Shown here: piece by piece, positions 8,135 to 24,000 of the stretch
Position numbering within the stretch: the stretch's first letter is position 1
Layout: each line of letters starts with the position of its first letter
Assembly: GCA_000281235.1 (NCBI GenBank)
Contig: CP003731.1
Span: forward strand, 199,500-223,499
Direction: 5' to 3'
Length of the DNA stretch: 24,000 nt
From: Candidatus Mycoplasma haematolamae str. Purdue
GTDB taxonomy: Bacteria; Bacillota_I; Bacilli_A; Mycoplasmatales; Mycoplasmoidaceae
Notes under the pieces: model-generated
The model's input: the letters and a program-made list of their open reading frames with translations, nothing else
Told to the model about the DNA's origin: nothing
The model's database searches: none
Position numbers and translations under genes: made by a program

Positions 8135-11100
8135 TTGGAGAAGCAGATCTTAGAGGAGAGATTTCGTCTACTTCTAGTTGAGGAGTTAAAGCTTTTTGAC
8201 CAGAATGAATATACCAACTTAAGAAAGAAGGCAGAGGTTAGTGGTAGATTTTCTAAGTGTTGAGATAGGTTTGACGTCTTTATTAGATTCTTTGACGAGC
8301 CTCTTTTTAGAGAGCTAAATAGGTGCTTTAACTACTACTCCAAGGTTTGCTATATCCACGTAAGGCTTGACTATCTCTATAACACTTCTTCCCTTTACAA
8401 GCTACTCCTTAGTTGATTTGATCAATTCCTAACTGAAGAGAGGGAAGATTTCAGAATACCTCGACTTAAGGAGGGAAATATCATCTTTGACTTTCCTCAG
8501 CTGATCATTAGGGTAGATAGTGATGTTCAGGAGAGGTTTATCTCTCCTCATCTAGAAAATCTTAGGTCTTTTTTAGAGTACATCTTTAGTTATCACAGGA
8601 TTAGTCTCTCAGTCAAAAAAGTTGAAAGTATACCTATTAGCGTTAGTCAGAGTGCAGGAGTTGCACAGGCTCTTTTCGACTCTTCAGAGTCAACTGTCTC
8701 CTCTATGAGGGAGGAGCTTAAGTCGATTATTGCTACTCAGACGAATGAACACAAGGGGGTGTTTCGTCTCTACTGTATAGAAGAGGAAGAAGGTTACGGA
8801 GCTAAAAGGTCTAAAAGTTATCGAATAGGTTTCACTAACTTCTCCGATCACTACTACCTCTTATTGGGCTCCAAGGTTAAAGAGGACAAAAAGAAGGAGA
8901 TTTTAGATGTTCTGAGGTTAGAAGAGTGATATGAGATTGAATACACCCTCGACTCTGCTGAGGGAAGAAGGAGCAGCCGAGTGACTATGAAGTGTGACGG
9001 TTGGCTTATGTCTTGCACACCTACAGAACCTCCTGAAGAGTATCGATTAGTTGATGATTCTCCTAAAAAGGCTTTTCCCCTGAATGTCTACACCAAATAC
9101 TCTAGTTTTGACGGTCTCTTCAGCTCCGATGAGTGAGCTATCCTGGCATCCAAATTAGGTCACAGTGTCCTTGCTTTAACGGATTTCAATAACGTTCACG
9201 TCTTTCCTGAAGCCGAGAAGAGCACCAAAAAAAATGGGTTAAAGCCTCTGTACGGTGCTGAGGTGGAGGTAATTTCTGAAGAGCTACAGATATGTACTAA
9301 CCTAGACTCCCTAGAGGAGAGATTTAGAGATCCTGTTATCTATTCGATATTTGACCTAGAGACTACAGGACTTCACCCTCTATTTGATGAGATTATTGAG
9401 ATTTATGTAATTAAGTATTCAGGAGGAAGGGAGATAGATAGCTATCACAGCTATCTGAAATGTGACAAGGAGTTAACTACTCAGATAGTTGACCTAACCA
9501 ACATAACTGCCGAGAAGCTAGACATAATGGGCAGGCCCAAAAGAGAAGTTCTCTCAGAAGTTAGAGAATTCATGACCGGCACTGTCTTGATGGCCCACAA
9601 TGGCTTGGATTTCGACCTTCCTTTCCTGAATGTTCAAATGAAGCTAGCGGGTCTAGAACCTTTAGATCAACCCTTACTGGATACCATTTTGCTAGCTAAG
9701 GCCCTTGATGGAGAAAAGAAGTCTAAGTCGTTTACCTTACATTCAGTTGCCAAAAAACTGTCAATCCCTGTAGCTGAGCGAGAGTTACACTCTGCTGAGT
9801 ACGACACTGGCTGTTTACTCAAGATCTGAAAGGTCTGAGAGACTCTTCTTATAGAGAAGGGACTAGATCCCTATGTCTATGAGAATCTAGAGGGAATAAA
9901 TAACTACTTTAGTCAAAAAAGCCTAATTAGGAATTATTTCGGAAGTAACGTAATCCTATTTGCAAAGAATCAGCAGGGCATCTACGATCTATTCGAGCTC
10001 ATTTCGGCGGCCCACACAGAGTGTTTTGTTGAGCGACCTAGGCTGACCTGACAGCTAATTGACTCTAAGAGAAAGAACCTAATAGTCCTATCATCACCGA
10101 CTAACAGTGAGTTAATTAAAGCTGCTTTTAGAGATGATTTCAGCGCATTTGAACGCGAAGGAAGGAAGCTGGACTATGTTTCTATCCCCCCTCCCTCTAT
10201 GTTCCTTCATGAGATGAATAGATTTGACCTCTCTTTGGAGCAAATACAGGGAATCATCAGACAGTTGTACGAATGAGGGAATGATTGCAAGTTTAAGTTA
10301 GTTGCCAACTATTGTCTAAAGTTTCAGTACTACAGAGAGGTAGAGCAGTACAAGGTATTAGTTCACGCGAAGATCATTGGAGGCAAGAGACACCCTCTTC
10401 ACTCAACTAAGTTCAGCAATGATGTTCTTCCTGATTACTCCCTAAGACTTACCAAAAACTTCATAGAAGAATTCAGTTTCTTAGGCCTAAATAAGAAAGA
10501 AATAGATTCACTCTTCTTTAGATACAGGGAGGAGATAGTGAAGTCTATTTCCTCAGATATCCAGATCAATAAACCTAATCTTTCTCTGCCTGTAATTGGG
10601 GATGCATTGGCCCAAATAAATCAGCATGTTGACAGAAAGTTAACAGAGAAATACGGACCTAGACCTCACTCCTATCTGAGAAGTACCCTAGATAGAGAGT
10701 TAAAGGGAATTAAAGAAAATGGTTTTGAATCCGTCTTTTGATGTGCCCATCTCCTCGTTGAGAGGTCCAAGAAGGAAGGCTATTTGGTCGGTTCTAGGGG
10801 CTCTGTAGGCTCCTCTTTTTTAGCTCACATGCTAGATATTAGTGAGGTAAACCCTCTACCCCCTCACTATTATTGCAGCTGTTGCTCCCACTTTGTGCTG
10901 GTAGAGAGCTTCAAGGAGTCAGGTTTTGACCTCGAGCCTAAACGTTGTCCTAACTGTTCTATCCCTCTATTAACAGATGGTCAGACAATCCCCTTTGAGA
11001 CTTTTATGGGACTCGAAGGTAACAAAGTGCCGGATATCGACCTTAACTTCTCTGGTCAGTATCAACAGGAGGCCCAACAGTTTTTGAGAGAACTCTTTGG

Positions 11101-18771: not shown

Positions 18772-18857
18772 AAAACTTTCTAGGTAATGAGAGAAAAGAG
18801 AGAGGACTAATTAGCGCTTTAAGCTCTTAAAAAACCTTTAATTACCATTAAGTCGTA

Positions 18858-19430
18858 GTGTTAGGTTTCAAAGAAGTTGCAATAGCTGTTGCAGCTACTG
18901 GAGCAGCAGGTAGTACTGTTGCGACTGCAGTTGCTTTGAATTCCAATCAGGATGTAGGTGTTTCAACTAAATCTGTTACCAACCCCAAATCGGAAGAATC
19001 TTTACTTTGAAAAAAGGAAGAAAAGCCAAGTTCACCTAAAGAATCTGATAAACGCATAACTACTTTCAAGGTTTCTAAGGAAATGGGCTATGGCACTTGA
19101 ACCAGAGAACTTACCTGTAAAGCAGATAAAGATAGATATCCAACCTTACTTCTTTGAAATCATGATAGGCAAGAAGTAATTCTTTTCTGTAATAGTTCCT
19201 TTCGAGAAACCAAGGACTTTCAACTAAACGAATCAGGTGTTAATGTGACTTGCAAAAAATCTGAAGGCTCAGGAGATTATTCATCAGAGTTCAATTGCGA
19301 AGTAGTTAGTCCCAAGATTTGGACTGTAAGATCAGATTATAGAAATGGTTTAGCTTTGATCTTTAAGTTAAAAAAGAGCAGATATCTTACTCATATCGGA
19401 GAGGACATAATCCATGATGATTGGCTATAA
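18858..19430 (+). CDS. family member Z: small membrane-anchored or secreted protein with a Gly/Ala-rich hydrophobic leader and a 4-Cys domain (190 aa)
   Basis: GTG 18858 is the first start after TAA 18849. MLGFKEVAIAVAATGAAGSTVATAVALNSN.. Three in-frame TGAs (19008, 19098, 19155) link it to track ORF 19245-19430. The leader is near-colinear with that of the gene at 23750 (MIFKELAIGVLGLGAVGGTVTTVTLSNSS). Confidence 0.7.
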
Positions 19431-19549: not shown

Positions 19550-19962
19550 GGAGAATGTAAGCCATATTCTGTTTCTACCTAATAGCAGTAGAAGTGAGTA
19601 ATTAATCTAACCTAGTTACCTAGATTTTTAAGTTCTGTTGGAATTCCAAAACTTAAAGTCCCTTACCATTATTTAGGTTTCTTGCTTGAGGGGTTTACCG
19701 CGTTTCACTCTCTTTATTTCTAAAGAGCTCGTCTCTGTGGCACCTTAAAGAAAATAGCATCATATAAGGAGGTTAGTCCTTACTTAGAAGTATTTTCTGC
19801 CATCAACTAGTTTCCTAGCCGTTGAGTTTTATTTTTTATGTACTCACACAAACACTATAGTCATCTCAGACTATGCAAGTATGGACTTTCCTCTACCTTA
19901 GAAAGACCTTTTTCTAGAAGAATCTATTCCTTCTAAAGCAGCTACTCACTCTCTCCCTCAAA
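19550..19962 (-). ncRNA. rnpB: RNase P RNA, type B (Bacillus/Mollicutes type); ends approximate (+/-15 nt)
   Basis: The minus strand reads GUAGAGGAAAGUCCAUACUUGCAUAGUCUGAGAUGACUAUAGUGUUUGUG.., ..GGUGCCACAGAGACGAGCUCUUUAGAAAUAAAGAGAGUGAAACGCGGUAAACCCCUCAAGCAAGAAACCUAAAUAAUGGUAAGGGA.., ..ACAGAAUAUGGCUUACA. It is nearly colinear with B. subtilis RNase P RNA as I recall it. A P1 helix is possible between UGAGGGAGA (5') and UCUCCCUCA (3'). Confidence 0.9.
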
Positions 19963-20129: not shown

Positions 20130-20464
20130 ATGTTTAGCTTCTTTAAGTCCCTTTCTTGTGTAGTTGCTGGAGGAACTACACTCGGAGGAGGTGCTTACGG
20201 CACCTACAGAGCTCTTAATGTTGGGGGGGGCACTCTACAGAAAGAATAAAAGTGACTAATTATTCTGCTTCTGGTTTAACTGACCATAAACCTCATAGCA
20301 CTGGATTAGCGGGTTGCACTCGTTGCAATGATGAAGAAGACCATGAAATGCAGTGTGAGCTCAATAGAGATGGAGCTAGACTTGAGTGTGGCTACGTTTG
20401 TCCCTTCACCAATGCTGAGAACAATATCAATGCTGTGTATGCGAGACAAAGAGGTTCTTCATAA
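20130..20464 (+). CDS. family member A: leader ORF (20130-20249) and 6-Cys body (frame of 20231, to TAA 20462-20464) separated by a frameshift at a G8 tract; candidate phase-variable gene, OFF as sequenced
   Basis: MFSFFKSLSCVVAGGTTLGGGAYGTYRALNVGGG then TAA after 6 more codons. The body ..HSTERIKVTNYSASGLTDHKPHSTGLAGCTRCNDEEDHEMQCELNRDGARLECGYVCPF.. is open in the next frame, starting right after the tract. Confidence 0.6.
20223..20230 (+). repeat. homopolymeric G8 tract at codon 32 of family member A
   Basis: ttGGGGGGGGcac counted directly in the sequence. Confidence 0.95.
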
Positions 20465-20831
20465 TGTCTCTTTCTGTAGGTTTTTTAAAGGTACTTGTCC
20501 CTACTGCTCTAGTGGGCTCTGCAGTAGGCTTCGGGATCTACACAATTAACGGTTCTGGGGGGGGCAAATAGTTAAAGCGAAACGGTATCAGCGTCAACAA
20601 GGTAGTACAGACTCTTTTCAAGTAGACGGCGAAGTTACGATAGTTGTTCCTAGATATTATGTTCAGTATGAAAGTGAATATCTAGGAAAGAAAACAATCA
20701 CTTTCGAAGAGAGTACTGGCAAGACCTGTTGAAATTCTCGAATTAATGAAGAAACTGGAAAGGATTATGTCTTCAATTTGTCTGTAGGTACGAATTGGAC
20801 GGACTTTACTAAACTTCCTCGCTGTCAATAA
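20464..20831 (+). CDS. family member B: leader ORF (20464-20571) and body (frame of 20565, to TAA 20829-20831) separated by a frameshift at a G8 tract; candidate phase-variable gene, OFF as sequenced
   Basis: The ATG overlaps the stop of member A (TAATG 20462-20466). MSLSVGFLKVLVPTALVGSAVGFGIYTINGSGGGK* is followed in the next frame by QIVKAKRYQRQQGSTDSFQVDGEVTIVVPRYYVQYESEYLGKKTITFEESTGKTCW*NSRINEETGKDYVFNLSVGTNWTDFTKLPRCQ*. Confidence 0.6.
20557..20564 (+). repeat. homopolymeric G8 tract at codon 32 of family member B
   Basis: tctGGGGGGGGcaa counted directly in the sequence. Confidence 0.95.
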
Positions 20832-20842
20832 GGATACAATCT

Positions 20843-20859
20843 AGCCTCAAAGAGAGGCT
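20843..20859 (+). terminator. weak hairpin after family member B (AGCCTC-aaaga-GAGGCT), no U-tail
   Basis: 6-bp perfect stem 12 nt after the TAA of member B, followed by an A8 run (20866-20873) rather than a T-run. Confidence 0.2.
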
Positions 20860-20939
20860 GCATCGAAAAAAAAGAGAGGGCGAGTTAGAGAAACCTAACA
20901 CATTCACTTAGCTTGTCAGTTCTAGGTAATCGGTTGTTG

Positions 20940-20947
20940 CCCCCCCC
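20940..20947 (+). repeat. homopolymeric C8 tract in the 5' leader/intergenic region of family member C
   Basis: ttgCCCCCCCCagc counted directly. Lies 51 nt upstream of the TTG start at 20998, with an in-frame TAG (20959) between them. Confidence 0.95.
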
Positions 20948-20997
20948 AGCCACTTCTCTAGAAAGCGTGAACCGGCTCCACATGACTCTCATTAAGC

Positions 20998-22155
20998 TTG
21001 CTTCACCTAAAGACCAAATTAGCCCTTGTTGTTTTAGGTCTAGGAGGGGCCAATGGAGTTTCGATGCTGGTCTTCAAAGACGATCTTTTCCAGAACCTAA
21101 GAGGTACTGAATTAAAAGAACTATTTAGCAGTCTAGGTCCTTTTTCAGGCAATAATTCGTTAGATCTCAGGCAAACTACCAGAGAAAACTTAGGAACCTT
21201 AGGTGTCTCTAATCTCTCTTCTCCTGTTTTATCTCTTTATGCAGATGGTCAGTTAAATATAGGAAGTTTAGGCAATGCTTGAGGTTTTAAAGAACAAATA
21301 ACTAAATTTCAGGAGAGTAATTCCTCTCTAGAGGCTTCAAAACTTAAAGATGAAAAAGCGAGAAAGATTATTGGCCAGTTGTCAAAGTCAGATATCCAAC
21401 ACTTCTTAAAGGCTCTAGAGAAGATAGAGAGGTTTGCCAGAGGAGAAAACAACGTAGAAGCTTTAGATCAACAGGAGAGAAGGGTAGTTCTCAAGTACTA
21501 CAAGGTCTGATGTGAACTTAAGCAGATAGGTTTAGATATCACTGCTATCTTTTCTAAAGAGGGAGAAGTAGCTAAGCTGCAACAGAGAGATTCCTTTGAA
21601 GATTATGAGAGTCTCAAGAAAAAATTAAGTAAACTGGGCTGGGAGTGACCTAGTCTTAAGGTACTTGGTCTTCACAATAGATTTGTAGATGCTTCTAGAG
21701 ATTGAGGGTCTGTCAGGGACTGAGACTCCAATCAGTGAAGGGAATATTATGTTCGCGACTCCCATAATTGGGGATATGACCTCGAGTGAAGCAAGAATCC
21801 CTGGAAGGATTTTTTTGTAGATGAAGCTGAATGGAAGGTCTTTTGGAGGGAGAGATCTAAACTCAAAGAGAGGCTCTGAAGGGATTGGCACAACTCCAAA
21901 TCGGTGGTGTGATGAGACTATGGTTGCTTCAAGCCTGTTAATGGGGTTGAATTTTTTGAAGGTTGCTACGAGACTACCCAAAAGGAGTTAGCAGAGGTAA
22001 TTGATGGGGCCAATGCAAATATTGGTCTTCAAGTAGGGATGAAGACATTACTGTGAATGGGTTATCCCCTTCAAGGTAAGAGGGCAATAATTGCCTTAAA
22101 TGGAAGAAATGCTGCAACCTGAATAGAGTCTGGACTAGTTAACTTGAAGTCTTAG
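20998..22155 (+). CDS. family member C: 385-aa protein with Gly-rich hydrophobic leader, central helical region and Trp-rich C-terminal domain
   Basis: TTG 20998 MLHLKTKLALVVLGLGGANGVSMLVFKDDL.. Track ORF 20998-21282 extends through 13 in-frame TGAs with no TAA/TAG until TAG 22153-22155. Paralogous to member D (LDQQERRVVLKYYKVW vs LSLEERQAVMKVYEAW; EWSKNPWKDFFVDEAEWKVFWRERSKLK vs NWESNPWGKFFESENLWKSYWEERDFLK). Confidence 0.7.
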
Positions 22156-22158
22156 AGT

Positions 22159-23217
22159 CTGGTCTTTACTGCGAAGGCCCAGATAGGTGCTGCCCTAGTC
22201 GGTCTGGGGGGGGTAAACGCAGTTGCAGTCACTGCCTTTAAATCGCCCTTAAAGGACCTATTTTTTTCTGAGCCTCCTTCAGATCTAACTACCAGTTCTT
22301 ACCTAGAAGGAAAAAGACACACCTTAAGTCTCTCGACTTCATCTAGAGAAGGTTTAAAAGAAACGAAGATTGTTAGTGCTCTAGATAGCCCTAAATTAGC
22401 TCTAAAACAGGAAGTGCCTCCTGTTCAGTTAGGTGACTTAGCTGCTCCACTAGAAAACAGGGAGACTTTAAAGGCGCAAGTAGGTTCTTTTAAAGGAGCA
22501 TTAGACAGATCAGAAGCTATCTCTTCTATAGAGGAAGAAAGAGACGAAAAAGTGAAGAAGGCACAAGAGGTGCTTGAACAGTACAAGTCGCATTTTGACG
22601 AAGCTGTTAAGAAGGTTAAGGTCTATCTCTCTAAAGAACCTAACTCCAAATTAACCTCACTATCCCTAGAGGAGAGGCAGGCAGTAATGAAGGTTTATGA
22701 AGCTTGAGCATCTATCAAGACAGCAATTGCAACAGCTAACTCTAAATTGAAGAAATTAGGCGCTGATGTTCAAGAGGAGCAATCTTCTTGAAAAACAGAC
22801 TCTGAAGTTAGAAGTATGCTCAACAATATTCTGTGGACAACACAGGGAATTAAGTTTTTAGGGAATGTTCAGAAGTCAGGAGCTAATCGATCAAACAATT
22901 GGCACTACAGCATGAATTGAGAATCTAATCCTTGGGGTAAGTTCTTTGAGAGTGAAAATCTGTGAAAAAGTTACTGAGAAGAAAGAGATTTCCTTAAAAA
23001 TGAACTCTATTCTTTGTTTTCATTAAAAGAACAATGAAAGGATGGTAAGTGCAGCAAGGTGACGGGGGTTTCTTCAGAACAGAGAGAATTGTGTTTCGCC
23101 AGGGCAAGAGATACAAGTATCGGCATTTATTCTGAGGCAAATATCAAGATAGAATTGCATGTAGCTAAACAGGTTTTGTCTTGAATGGGCAAATTAGACG
23201 AGACTAAAGCTAAATAA
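22159..23217 (+). CDS. family member D: paralog of C with an in-frame G8 tract in the leader; no canonical start codon (CTG 22159 or ATA 22183 are the candidates)
   Basis: Same frame as member C and opens right after its TAG. SLVFTAKAQIGAALVGLGGVNAVAVTAFKSPLKDLFF.. includes track ORF 22414-22707, then continues through TGAs to TAA 23215-23217. Confidence 0.6.
22206..22213 (+). repeat. homopolymeric G8 tract encoding the GLGG motif of member D's leader (in frame as sequenced)
   Basis: ggtctGGGGGGGGtaaac counted directly. The homologous GLGG in member C is encoded by the interrupted ggt cta gga ggg. Confidence 0.95.
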
Positions 23218-23227
23218 AAATAGAGTC

Positions 23228-23250
23228 AGTAGGCCCTAAAGGGGTCTACT
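23228..23250 (+). terminator. imperfect hairpin between members D and E (AGTAGGCCC-taaa-GGGGTCTACT)
   Basis: 3 bp + 1-nt bulge + 6 bp (one G-U). Starts 11 nt after the TAA of D and ends 8 nt before the ATG of E. Only a short T-run follows. Confidence 0.25.
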
Positions 23251-23257
23251 CTTTGAA

Positions 23258-23749
23258 ATGACTAATGCAAGTGTGGGTCTCTGAATCCTTAAGTTAATGG
23301 CTGGAGGTGCTGCCTTTGGAGGAGGGTCTGCAGCTTTAGGATATTTCTCTGCCCTATTAGTAGATTTGAAGGAAGCTCCTCAAACTGATAAGGGATATCC
23401 TGATCCTGATTGAGGTAGAGAGGTTAACTACAAGATAAGAGTTTCTACTAAGGAAAAGAAAAATAAGGAAGCCTCTTTGGTTTGTGCAGGTCGATCTTGA
23501 TACTTTGCGAATCTTAAGGCAGAAGTAGATAAAGAAGGAGAGAGATTGAGACTACTCTGTGACTACTCCAAGAAGAAGACCAACAAATTAATTGAAGAAA
23601 TGAACCCCAAAAAACAAATTTTAACCTGCTCTATCAGGGATAGAGAACAAGGATTCAAAGAAGTCTTCTGCTTTTTACCTGAAAAAGAACTTACCATGGA
23701 TTCTTCCACTTTAAGGGAGAAGAGGCACCTTTTGATCTCCTGATCCTAG
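23258..23749 (+). CDS. family member E: 163-aa protein with Gly-rich leader and a 4-Cys domain
   Basis: ATG 23258 MTNASVGLW*ILKLMAGGAAFGGGSAALGYFSALLVDLKEAP.. In-frame TGAs join it to track ORF 23546-23743; TAG 23747-23749. Cys spacing 24/22/13 vs 23/20/14 in member Z. Confidence 0.7.
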
Positions 23750-24000
23750 ATGATTTTTAAGGAACTAGCAATAGGGGTCTTGGGCCTGGGAGCTGTTGGA
23801 GGCACCGTTACTACTGTAACCTTATCTAACTCAAGTACAGATGGTTCTGTGAGCACTCAGAAGAGGGTAGTTCAGGATCCTGAGTACTTCGGAAAGCCTA
23901 TTAACTATAAGATGACAGTCAATAAGGGCATAGGAGGAGAACAAAACCAGTATTTGAAATGCTCTGGCCTAGCTAATCACTTCGCCTTCTTTAGGGTTCA
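23750..24000 (+). CDS. family member F (3' end outside the window)
   Basis: The ATG directly abuts the TAG of member E (TAGATG). MIFKELAIGVLGLGAVGGTVTTVTLSNSSTDGSVSTQKRVVQDPEYFGKPINYKMTVNKGIGGEQNQYLKCSGLANHFAFFRV.. The leader matches member Z and the body matches member E (EVNYKIRVSTKEK..SLVCAGRSWYFANL). Confidence 0.7.
   Translation, partial: MIFKELAIGVLGLGAVGGTVTTVTLSNSSTDGSVSTQKRVVQDPEYFGKPINYKMTVNKGIGGEQNQYLKCSGLANHFAFFRV

What the first reader, a model, noticed from the sequence alone, without database searches (positions are those of the whole stretch)
20130..20464. G8 tract at codon 32 splits member A into leader and body: candidate slipped-strand ON/OFF switch (OFF as sequenced)
The 31-codon leader runs into GGGGGGGG (20223-20230) and terminates 6 codons later (TAA 20247). 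The frame starting at the first base after the tract (20231) is open for 77 codons to TAA 20462 and encodes the Cys-rich body. A tract of 9 (or 6) G would fuse them into a 111-aa leader-plus-body protein with the architecture of intact paralogs. Assuming about 20% G and 20% C, a G8 or C8 run is expected roughly 0.1 times in 24 kb by chance, yet four are observed within 2 kb. Homopolymer-length phase variation is an established mechanism in Mollicutes and other host-adapted bacteria.
Basis: partly seen in the sequence, partly recalled or inferred. Interest (0 to 1): 0.85.

Follow-up and report, generated by a model that had tools for sequence, protein, structure and literature searches.

The report
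Poly-G frame switch in hemoplasma genes
Two neighbouring small membrane-protein genes of the alpaca blood parasite 'Candidatus Mycoplasma haemolamae' are each split at codon 32 by a run of eight G's, which looks like the familiar slipped-strand on/off switch of pathogens; this has not been described for hemoplasmas and I could not test it for actual length variation.

Summary
ATG 20130 opens a 31-codon hydrophobic leader that runs into G8 (20223-20230) and stops at TAA 20247. The -1 frame from 20231 is open to TAA 20462. G9 or G6 gives a 111- or 110-aa protein.

The window is 'Candidatus Mycoplasma haematolamae' str. Purdue (TGA = Trp). An intact paralog, MHLP_01640, has the same junction, V-GGG-HST, in frame. 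The next gene, B (ATG 20464), repeats the design: G8 at codon 32, needing +1 G.

Four G8/C8 runs lie within 2 kb where about 0.1 is expected in the whole window. GGG is the rarest glycine codon. Six A7/A8 runs in housekeeping genes keep their frame. Both halves of A and B score as coding. No frameshift-stimulating RNA structure follows either tract.

The best reading is a homopolymer phase-variable (contingency) locus, OFF as sequenced. It resembles M. hominis vaa but uses poly-G.

Only one genome of this uncultivable organism is public, and I could not retrieve its DNA. Tract-length heterogeneity, the defining feature, is therefore untested. Of the four tracts, only A and B split a frame. D's is in frame and the C8 is intergenic.

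It is a new member of a known kind and of moderate interest.

The parts
20130..20249 (+). Member A leader ORF as sequenced: 31 leader codons, the G tract, 5 out-of-frame codons and TAA. The product is a 39-aa stub, MFSFFKSLSCVVAGGTTLGGGAYGTYRALNVGGGTLQKE.
   Evidence: Translation. The same 39-aa peptide exists as a UniParc entry, P0005. The codon score is positive in this frame only. The leader is 20/31 identical to the leader of the intact paralog MHLP_00360 (my count on the alignment).
20223..20230 (+). G8 homopolymer at codons 32-34 of member A, the proposed slippage site.
   Evidence: G9 or G6 fuses leader and body; all other lengths from 5 to 11 give 38-43 aa stubs.
20231..20464 (+). Member A body: 77 codons plus TAA, in the -1 frame relative to the leader. 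It is annotated only from GTG 20252 as MHLP_01070 (70 aa).
   Evidence: It is 45% identical to MHLP_01640 over 97% of the fused query, and the similarity continues upstream of the annotated start through HSTERIKV and into the tract. The codon score is +6.6 in this frame against -10.9 and -34.0 in the other two.
20464..20571 (+). Member B leader ORF as sequenced. Its ATG overlaps A's stop (TAATG). It has 31 leader codons, then GGG GGG GGC AAA TAG, giving a 35-aa stub.
   Evidence: The 19-residue hydropathy maximum is 1.79. An AAAGAGG Shine-Dalgarno-like motif lies 9 nt upstream of the ATG (read).
20557..20564 (+). G8 homopolymer at codon 32 of member B. It is in the same OFF phase as A and needs +1 or -2 G.
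20565..20831 (+). Member B body: 88 codons plus stop, in the -1 frame. There is no ATG/GTG/TTG in this frame until codon 76 of the 93-codon stop-to-stop frame that begins at 20550, so it can be expressed only through the leader.
   Evidence: The codon score is +6.0 against -11.2 and -26.5. B is not annotated and has no detectable homolog.
20940..20947 (+). C8 homopolymer in the B-C intergenic region, 51 nt upstream of the putative TTG start (20998) of member C. It is not a coding switch and its role is unknown.
   Evidence: No frame through the tract is continuous with C. No promoter-like hexamer pair was found around it.
20998..22155 (+). Member C, a 385-aa paralog of D with an intact leader. 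Its GLGG motif is encoded GGT CTA GGA GGG, with no homopolymer.
   Evidence: 28% identity to D, E 7e-29.
22206..22213 (+). G8 homopolymer inside the leader of member D. It encodes part of GLGG and is in frame with the body.
   Evidence: G6, G7, G9 and G10 would each truncate within a few codons.
22156..23217 (+). Member D. The frame is open for 353 codons but has no canonical start before codon 87. It is annotated as the truncated 267-aa MHLP_01080.

Best explanation
Member A, and its neighbour B, is a small protein gene with an N-terminal membrane anchor or signal. Its expression appears to be gated by a hypermutable poly-G tract placed exactly at the leader/body junction.

During replication the G run would gain or lose a base by slipped-strand mispairing. 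Mollicutes lack MutS/MutL mismatch repair (general knowledge, not tested here), so such slips would go uncorrected.

With 9 or 6 G's, the leader (codons 1-31), a Gly2-3 hinge and the body are read as one 110/111-aa protein, which I take to be ON. With 8 G's, as sequenced, or any other length, translation stops a few codons after the tract and yields a 38-43 aa stub, which I take to be OFF.

B has the same design at the same codon, and its ATG overlaps A's stop codon. The two tracts could therefore give combinatorial ON/OFF states within one transcription unit.

Shown directly:
- the anatomy;
- the frames;
- the paralog support for the fused reading;
- the statistical excess of tracts;
- the use of a rare codon.

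Inferred:
- that the tract length really varies;
- that the protein is surface-exposed;
- that switching serves immune evasion or host adaptation.
For: 1. Anatomy: G8 sits at codon 32, and G9 or G6 restores a 111- or 110-aa ORF. Both wrong frames stop within a few codons of the tract.
2. The intact paralog MHLP_01640 (107 aa) aligns with the fused protein over 97% of its length at 45% identity. The junction V-G-G-G-H-S-T is identical, so the fused frame is the ancestral, functional one. A third paralog, MHLP_00360, has a leader 20/31 identical and a continuous body.
3. Gene B, unrelated in its body sequence, repeats the design: a 31-codon leader, G8 at codon 32 and the same phase. Its body has no internal start codon.
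4. Excess: four G8/C8 runs against about 0.1 expected, P about 4e-6. All lie in the paralog array, and no G6 or G7 runs exist in the window.
5. The tract is not explained by coding need. GGG makes up 12.6% of glycine codons, and none of the 20 Gly-Gly(-Gly) runs in housekeeping genes uses GGG GGG. A's own leader encodes another GGG tripeptide as GGA GGA GGT.
6. Leader and body each score as coding in their own frame and negatively in the other two. The frameshift at the tract is the only lesion.
7. Generic homopolymer miscalling is unlikely. All six A7/A8 runs in housekeeping ORFs, including an A8 in polC, preserve the frame.
8. The same laboratory's M. haemocanis genome of the same year was sequenced by Illumina at more than 3400x coverage (PMC3496576).
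9. Precedent in Mollicutes: the 5' poly-A tract of M. hominis vaa is ON at 8 A and OFF at 7 or 9, and switches at 1e-3 to 1e-4 (PMC524362). M. fermentans p78 is a second case (PMC2831843).
Against: - There are no data on tract-length variation. Only one genome (strain Purdue) exists in the protein collections. Neither the fused A nor the fused B protein is present among about 15 billion proteins.
- A and B are both OFF, and D lacks a start codon, so the array could simply be decaying.
- All four tracts are exactly 8, whereas independently slipping loci might be expected to show a spread of lengths.
- B has no homolog anywhere, so the reality of its body rests on the codon score and ORF length only. 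Long spurious ORFs are common under this genetic code.
- The C8 tract has no identifiable switch role.
- The sequencing platform for this particular genome could not be verified, because the genome announcement is not held.
Confidence: 0.6

Rival explanations
1. A and B are plain pseudogenes. They were knocked out by a one-base deletion at a mutational hotspot and are on their way to decay. The tracts are leftovers, with no adaptive or reversible switching.
For: Both A and B are out of frame, and D has no usable start codon. The authors of the hemoplasma comparison warn that many paralog-family members may be unrecognised pseudogenes (PMC3958358). B is an orphan.
Against: The frameshift at the tract is the only lesion in each gene. 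Leader and body still score as coding. A's leader remains 65% identical to that of an intact paralog. Four perfect 8-mers, with no interrupted or shortened G-runs, are hard to maintain without selection. By contrast, the C-run in housekeeping polC is interrupted, CCCCCCTCCC. In an organism without mismatch repair, an uninterrupted G8 would in any case be expected to revert often.
Confidence: 0.2
2. Sequencing or assembly miscall. The true tracts in A and B are G9, and both genes are simply intact in the sequenced population.
For: A and B need the same correction (+1 G). All tracts read exactly 8. The platform used for this genome could not be checked.
Against: A systematic undercall would also apply to D, whose G8 is in frame. 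If D's tract were really 9, it would be broken. Six A7/A8 runs in housekeeping genes are all frame-preserving. The same group's contemporaneous pipeline was high-coverage Illumina, which has low indel error at 8-mers (PMC3496576). That it was also used here is my inference.
Confidence: 0.1
3. Recoding at a fixed G8. RNA polymerase slippage adds a G to some transcripts, or ribosomes shift -1 on G GGG GGC. A constant fraction of full-length protein is then made alongside the leader stub.
For: The body lies in the -1 frame, and the run formally fits an X XXY YYZ pattern. Transcriptional slippage rescues frameshifted homopolymer genes in Buchnera (cited in PMC2831843).
Against: No stable structure lies downstream of either tract; the z-scores are -0.96 and +1.39 against shuffles. 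The paralog MHLP_01640 is encoded in frame, so frameshifting is not a conserved feature of the family. To my knowledge, known slippage cases use A/T runs of 9 or more.
Confidence: 0.05
4. The annotation is right. The body is an independent leaderless gene starting at GTG 20252 (MHLP_01070, 70 aa), perhaps reinitiated after the leader ORF stops at TAA 20247. The leader ORF would be a separate micropeptide.
For: GTG 20252 lies 2 nt after the leader's stop codon, a spacing compatible with termination-reinitiation (read).
Against: Homology to MHLP_01640 continues upstream of GTG 20252 through HSTERIKV, the GGG and the leader. B's body has no start codon at all until codon 76 of its 93-codon frame, so the same logic cannot apply to the twin gene.
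Confidence: 0.05

Closest known systems
Mycoplasma hominis vaa (variable adherence-associated adhesin): a translational phase switch at a 5' poly-A tract (Zhang & Wise 1997, as summarised in PMC524362 and PMC2831843)
   Same: Both are in Mollicutes. Both place a homopolymer of about 8 bases in the 5' coding region just after the N-terminal signal or anchor. A change of one base toggles between the full-length surface protein and a short truncated product.
   Different: The tract here is poly-G, not poly-A, in a 39% G+C hemoplasma. The proteins are small orphan proteins without a lipoprotein signal and are unrelated to Vaa. At least two adjacent genes carry the device. Switching has not been observed here.
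Mycoplasma fermentans p78: a poly-A tract at the 5' end of an ABC-transporter lipoprotein gene (cited in PMC2831843)
   Same: A homopolymer frameshift in the N-terminal coding region of a Mollicutes membrane-protein gene.
   Different: A poly-A tract of 7 bases in a single gene with a known function. Here the tract is poly-G8 in species-specific paralog-array genes of unknown function.
Poly-G/C contingency loci of Campylobacter jejuni, Neisseria, Haemophilus and Helicobacter (PMC8355987, PMC5084427; abstracts seen)
   Same: G/C homopolymers of 8 or more bases. They cluster in genes for surface structures. Several tracts per genome sit in different phases, and the wrong frames stop quickly.
   Different: Those organisms are Gram-negative proteobacteria or epsilonproteobacteria, and their variation has been shown experimentally. 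Poly-G switches have not been reported for hemoplasmas in the searchable literature. The hemoplasma genome papers proposed only tandem-repeat (VNTR) mechanisms (PMC3196708).

Membership tests
Simple-sequence-repeat (homopolymer) phase-variable / contingency locus | An uninterrupted homopolymer long enough to be hypermutable (about 7-8 G/C or more) | tested here: met
   Perfect G8 at 20223-20230 and at 20557-20564. This is about 40-fold more G8/C8 runs than expected.
Simple-sequence-repeat (homopolymer) phase-variable / contingency locus | The tract is positioned so that a length change of one unit toggles the reading frame (or the promoter), and the wrong frames stop early | tested here: met
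   G6 and G9 give 110/111 aa (A) and 121/122 aa (B). All other lengths from 5 to 11 give stubs of 34-43 aa.
Simple-sequence-repeat (homopolymer) phase-variable / contingency locus | The in-frame product is a real, otherwise intact protein | tested here: met
   For A: an intact paralog with an identical junction and positive codon scores. For B: codon score only, with no homolog.
Simple-sequence-repeat (homopolymer) phase-variable / contingency locus | Tract length differs within or between populations or strains | not testable with these tools
   Only strain Purdue is public. Its DNA is absent from genome contigs, metagenome contigs and the encoding-contig index. The fused proteins are absent from the protein collection.
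Simple-sequence-repeat (homopolymer) phase-variable / contingency locus | Reversible, heritable ON/OFF expression of the product | not testable with these tools
   This needs experiments, and the organism cannot be cultivated.
Simple-sequence-repeat (homopolymer) phase-variable / contingency locus | The product is exposed to the host (surface or secreted) | tested here: inconclusive
   The leaders are Gly/Ala-rich and hydrophobic, with 19-residue Kyte-Doolittle maxima of 1.1-2.0. There is no Pfam domain. The AlphaFold model is unusable at pLDDT 39.
Programmed -1 ribosomal frameshift site | A stimulatory RNA structure a few nucleotides downstream of the slippery run | tested here: not met
   The 100 nt after each tract fold no better than shuffles: z = -0.96 for A and +1.39 for B.
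Programmed -1 ribosomal frameshift site | The frameshift is conserved among homologs | tested here: not met
   MHLP_01640 and MHLP_00360 are annotated as single uninterrupted proteins across the junction.
Decayed pseudogene | Several independent disabling lesions and loss of coding signal | tested here: not met
   There is one lesion, at the tract. The frames are otherwise open over the full length of the paralog, and the coding score is retained.
Mycoplasma variable lipoprotein families (Vlp, Vsa, Vpma, Vaa type) | A prolipoprotein signal peptide with a lipobox cysteine | tested here: inconclusive
   By eye, A's leader has no canonical L-x-x-C lipobox after a hydrophobic core. UniProt labels MHLP_01640 'Lipoprotein'. 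No dedicated predictor was available.

The most novel reading that the evidence does not exclude
Hemoplasmas may possess a poly-G 'phasome'. In it, a short leader followed by a G tract at a fixed codon (32) would act as a modular switch placed in front of otherwise unrelated surface-protein bodies. Adjacent switches (A and B, with overlapping stop and start codons) would give combinatorial surface repertoires. That could underlie the cyclic bacteraemia and persistence of these uncultivable blood parasites. It would be a mechanism distinct from the tandem-repeat and paralog-recombination ideas in the hemoplasma literature.
Probability: 0.3. Interest if true: 0.65.

Novelty: new member of a known kind. 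Interest (0 to 1): 0.45.

Why it matters
Hemotropic mycoplasmas cannot be cultured and cause chronic, cyclic infections. How they vary their surface is an open question.

Published genome papers point only to large paralog families and tandem repeats, and mention no homopolymer switch.

These two tracts give a concrete, cheap test: amplicon deep sequencing of two 8-base runs from blood taken at different points of infection. They also show that public annotation of this genome mis-handles such genes. A is annotated as a truncated body, B is not annotated at all, and D is truncated.

The mechanism itself is textbook, so the conceptual gain is limited.

Tried and rejected
- **Retrieving the rest of the genome or other strains.**
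  - Two genome-contig scans found no relatives: the A-family alignment and Lon.
  - Two metagenome-contig scans found no relatives: the A family and the C/D family.
  - Five exact-protein look-ups in the encoding-contig index found nothing.
  - As a result, no genome-wide census of G tracts was possible. I could not get the DNA of the in-frame paralog MHLP_01640 to see whether it carries G9, and I could make no strain comparison.
- **Homology searches.**
  - B has no hits, and D hits only itself.
  - A full HMMER search with the A-family profile finds only three Ca. M. haemolamae proteins plus the 39-aa leader-only peptide encoded by this window.
  - There are no Pfam domains.
- **Structure prediction** of the A family gave pLDDT 39. 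I ran no fold search because it would be meaningless.
- **Looking for a role for the C8 tract.** No coding frame connects it to C. No promoter-like hexamers flank it. No convincing leader exists on the minus strand.
- **Shared leader DNA.** The leader DNAs of the family members do not align (45% mean column identity). The tracts are therefore not copies of one recent duplication.
- **The genome announcement** (PMC3486355) is not held, so the sequencing platform is unverified.

Full report
**Source and context**

The window uses TGA as a sense codon: every long conserved ORF contains in-frame TGAs. Proteins from it match 'Candidatus Mycoplasma haematolamae' (haemolamae) str. Purdue, a 756,845-bp hemotropic mycoplasma genome from an alpaca.

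- Positions 1-18.8 kb carry housekeeping genes such as polC, rsmH, mraZ and lon.
- A small leader-bearing gene follows lon at 18852-19430.
- The RNase P RNA lies on the minus strand at 19553-19914.
- Next comes a head-to-tail array of leader-bearing orphan genes that I call A, B, C, D, E and F (20130-24000).

**Checking the observation**

All coordinates in the finding are right.

- ATG 20130 is the first start after an in-frame TAA.
- Thirty-one codons encode MFSFFKSLSCVVAGGTTLGGGAYGTYRALNV.
- The G8 run at 20223-20230 follows, and the frame ends at TAA 20247, giving a 39-aa product.
- The frame beginning at 20231 is open for 77 codons to TAA 20462.
- Simulating tract lengths 5-11 shows that only G6 and G9 join the two parts (110 and 111 aa). 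Every other length gives a 38-43 aa stub.
- Three G8 runs and one C8 run lie between 20223 and 22213. The expectation for 24 kb is 0.09-0.10, so Poisson P is about 4e-6.
- The G-run length distribution jumps from 5 straight to 8, with nothing at 6 or 7.

**What the four tracts are**

- **A and B are twins in design.** B's ATG (20464) overlaps A's stop (TAATG). B's leader is also 31 codons, its G8 (20557-20564) also starts codon 32, and it also needs +1 or -2 G to join an 88-codon body. B's body has no ATG/GTG/TTG in its frame until codon 76 of the 93-codon stop-to-stop frame, so it can only be expressed through the leader.
- **D's tract is in frame.** The G8 at 22206-22213 lies inside the leader and encodes part of GLGG, in frame with the 353-codon body. 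However, D has no canonical start after the TAG that ends C, and it is annotated only as a 267-aa fragment.
- **The C8 is intergenic.** It lies at 20940-20947, 51 nt upstream of C's putative TTG. No frame links it to C, and no promoter-like hexamers flank it.

The 'four tracts' therefore show local enrichment, but only two are frame-splitting switches of the kind proposed.

**Is the fused reading the real protein?**

For A, yes.

- The fused 111-aa sequence finds MHLP_01640 (107 aa) at E 4e-23 in a database of 5.8 billion sequences, with 45% identity over 97% of the query.
- The alignment runs straight through the junction with V-G-G-G-H-S-T invariant.
- The public annotation of A (MHLP_01070) starts at GTG 20252 and misses the conserved HSTERIKV and the leader.
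- A full HMMER profile search adds MHLP_00360 (100 aa), whose leader is 20/31 identical to A's, and the leader-only 39-aa peptide deposited in UniParc.
- A codon-usage log-odds score trained on the window's long ORFs is positive for each leader and each body in its own frame and negative in the other two.
  - The A leader is the exception: its +1 frame also scores weakly positive.
  - The rnpB-containing spacer is negative in all three frames.
- For B there is no homolog. Its reality rests on that score, the open frame and the design it shares with A.

**Is the tract there for coding reasons or by error?**

- GGG is the rarest glycine codon, at 12.6% of glycine codons.
- None of the 20 Gly-Gly(-Gly) runs in housekeeping genes uses GGG GGG.
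- A's own leader encodes another Gly-Gly-Gly as GGA GGA GGT.
- All six A7/A8 runs inside housekeeping ORFs keep the frame, including an A8 in the 1458-codon polC.
- The only long C-rich run in a housekeeping gene is interrupted, CCCCCCTCCC.
- A uniform undercall of G9 as G8 would repair A and B but break D.

I could not verify the platform for this genome. The same laboratory's M. haemocanis genome of the same year was Illumina at more than 3400x coverage (PMC3496576).

**Alternatives at the RNA or ribosome level**

The body lies in the -1 frame. The 100 nt downstream of each tract fold no better than shuffled sequence, with z = -0.96 and +1.39. The paralogs are encoded in one frame. Programmed frameshifting is therefore unsupported. 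Low-level transcriptional slippage cannot be excluded.

**Mechanism proposed**

I propose a slipped-strand phase switch. Replication slippage would change G8 to G9 or G7, and in a mollicute lacking mismatch repair (general knowledge, not tested here) such slips would persist. G9 or G6 would make leader, Gly hinge and body in one protein. Other lengths would make a stub.

Because A's stop overlaps B's start, and B has its own Shine-Dalgarno-like AAAGAGG, the pair could give four expression states. Everything beyond the anatomy is inference, because no variation data exist.

**Comparison with known systems**

Functionally this matches the 5' homopolymer translational switches of M. hominis vaa and M. 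fermentans p78. In vaa, 8 A is ON, 7 or 9 A is OFF, and switching occurs at 1e-3 to 1e-4 (PMC524362). The p78 case is cited in PMC2831843. In base composition it matches the poly-G contingency loci of Campylobacter and Neisseria.

It differs in three ways:

- It uses poly-G in a mollicute.
- It sits in small orphan, non-lipoprotein genes.
- It occurs at the same codon in two adjacent unrelated genes.

Hemoplasma genome papers discuss phase variation only via tandem repeats and never mention homopolymers. No paper in the held library combines hemoplasma with homopolymer in a relevant way.

**Limits**

I could not obtain any DNA of this genome outside the window, nor any second strain. Three things remain undone:

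- the defining test, tract-length heterogeneity;
- a genome-wide census of G tracts;
- the tract length of the in-frame paralog.

The structure model of the A family was unusable at pLDDT 39.

**Verdict**

- The rivals are a fixed pseudogene (0.2), a miscall (0.1), recoding (0.05) and separate genes as annotated (0.05).
- It is a new member of a known kind and of moderate interest.

Noticed in passing
window 19553-19914 (-): Bacterial RNase P RNA, class B (Rfam RF00011, 219 bits, full length). It fills the apparently empty 700 bp between the gene at 18852-19430 and member A, so A's promoter must lie in the roughly 215 bp between rnpB and ATG 20130.
   Followed up: partly
window 20464-20831 (+): Member B (leader plus G8 plus an 88-codon body) is missing from the public annotation and from the 15-billion-protein collection. 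Both halves nevertheless score as coding. Its ATG overlaps A's stop (TAATG), with an AAAGAGG motif 9 nt upstream.
   Followed up: partly
window 22144-23217 (+): Member D has an open 353-codon frame with a normal-looking leader but no ATG/GTG/TTG before codon 87. A TTG at 22144 is followed by TAG at its fourth codon, which is also the stop of C. D either uses a non-canonical start (CTG 22159?) or is a nonsense pseudogene. It is annotated as the truncated 267-aa MHLP_01080.
   Followed up: partly
window 20940-20947: A C8 tract lies in the B-C intergenic region, 51 nt upstream of C's putative TTG start. It has no coding role and no recognisable promoter context. An A8 (20866-20873) and a 6-bp hairpin (about 20843-20860) lie just upstream. 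Its function is unexplained.
   Followed up: partly
window 20223-22213: All four G/C tracts are exactly 8 long, and the window has no G6 or G7 run at all. It is unclear whether this uniform length reflects an equilibrium of slippage, selection or a technical ceiling.
   Followed up: no
window 10186-10195: The only other long C-rich run is in polC and is interrupted (CCCCCCTCCC) and in frame. This is consistent with avoidance of perfect G/C homopolymers in essential genes.
   Followed up: no
window 18852-19430, 23258-23749, 23750-24000: Three further leader-bearing orphan genes (up1, E and F) flank the tract-bearing genes. Up1 and F share motifs after the leader (VSTKS / VSTQ), and E and F share NYK. 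None has a homopolymer at the leader end, and E encodes its Gly run as GGA GGA GGG.
   Followed up: no
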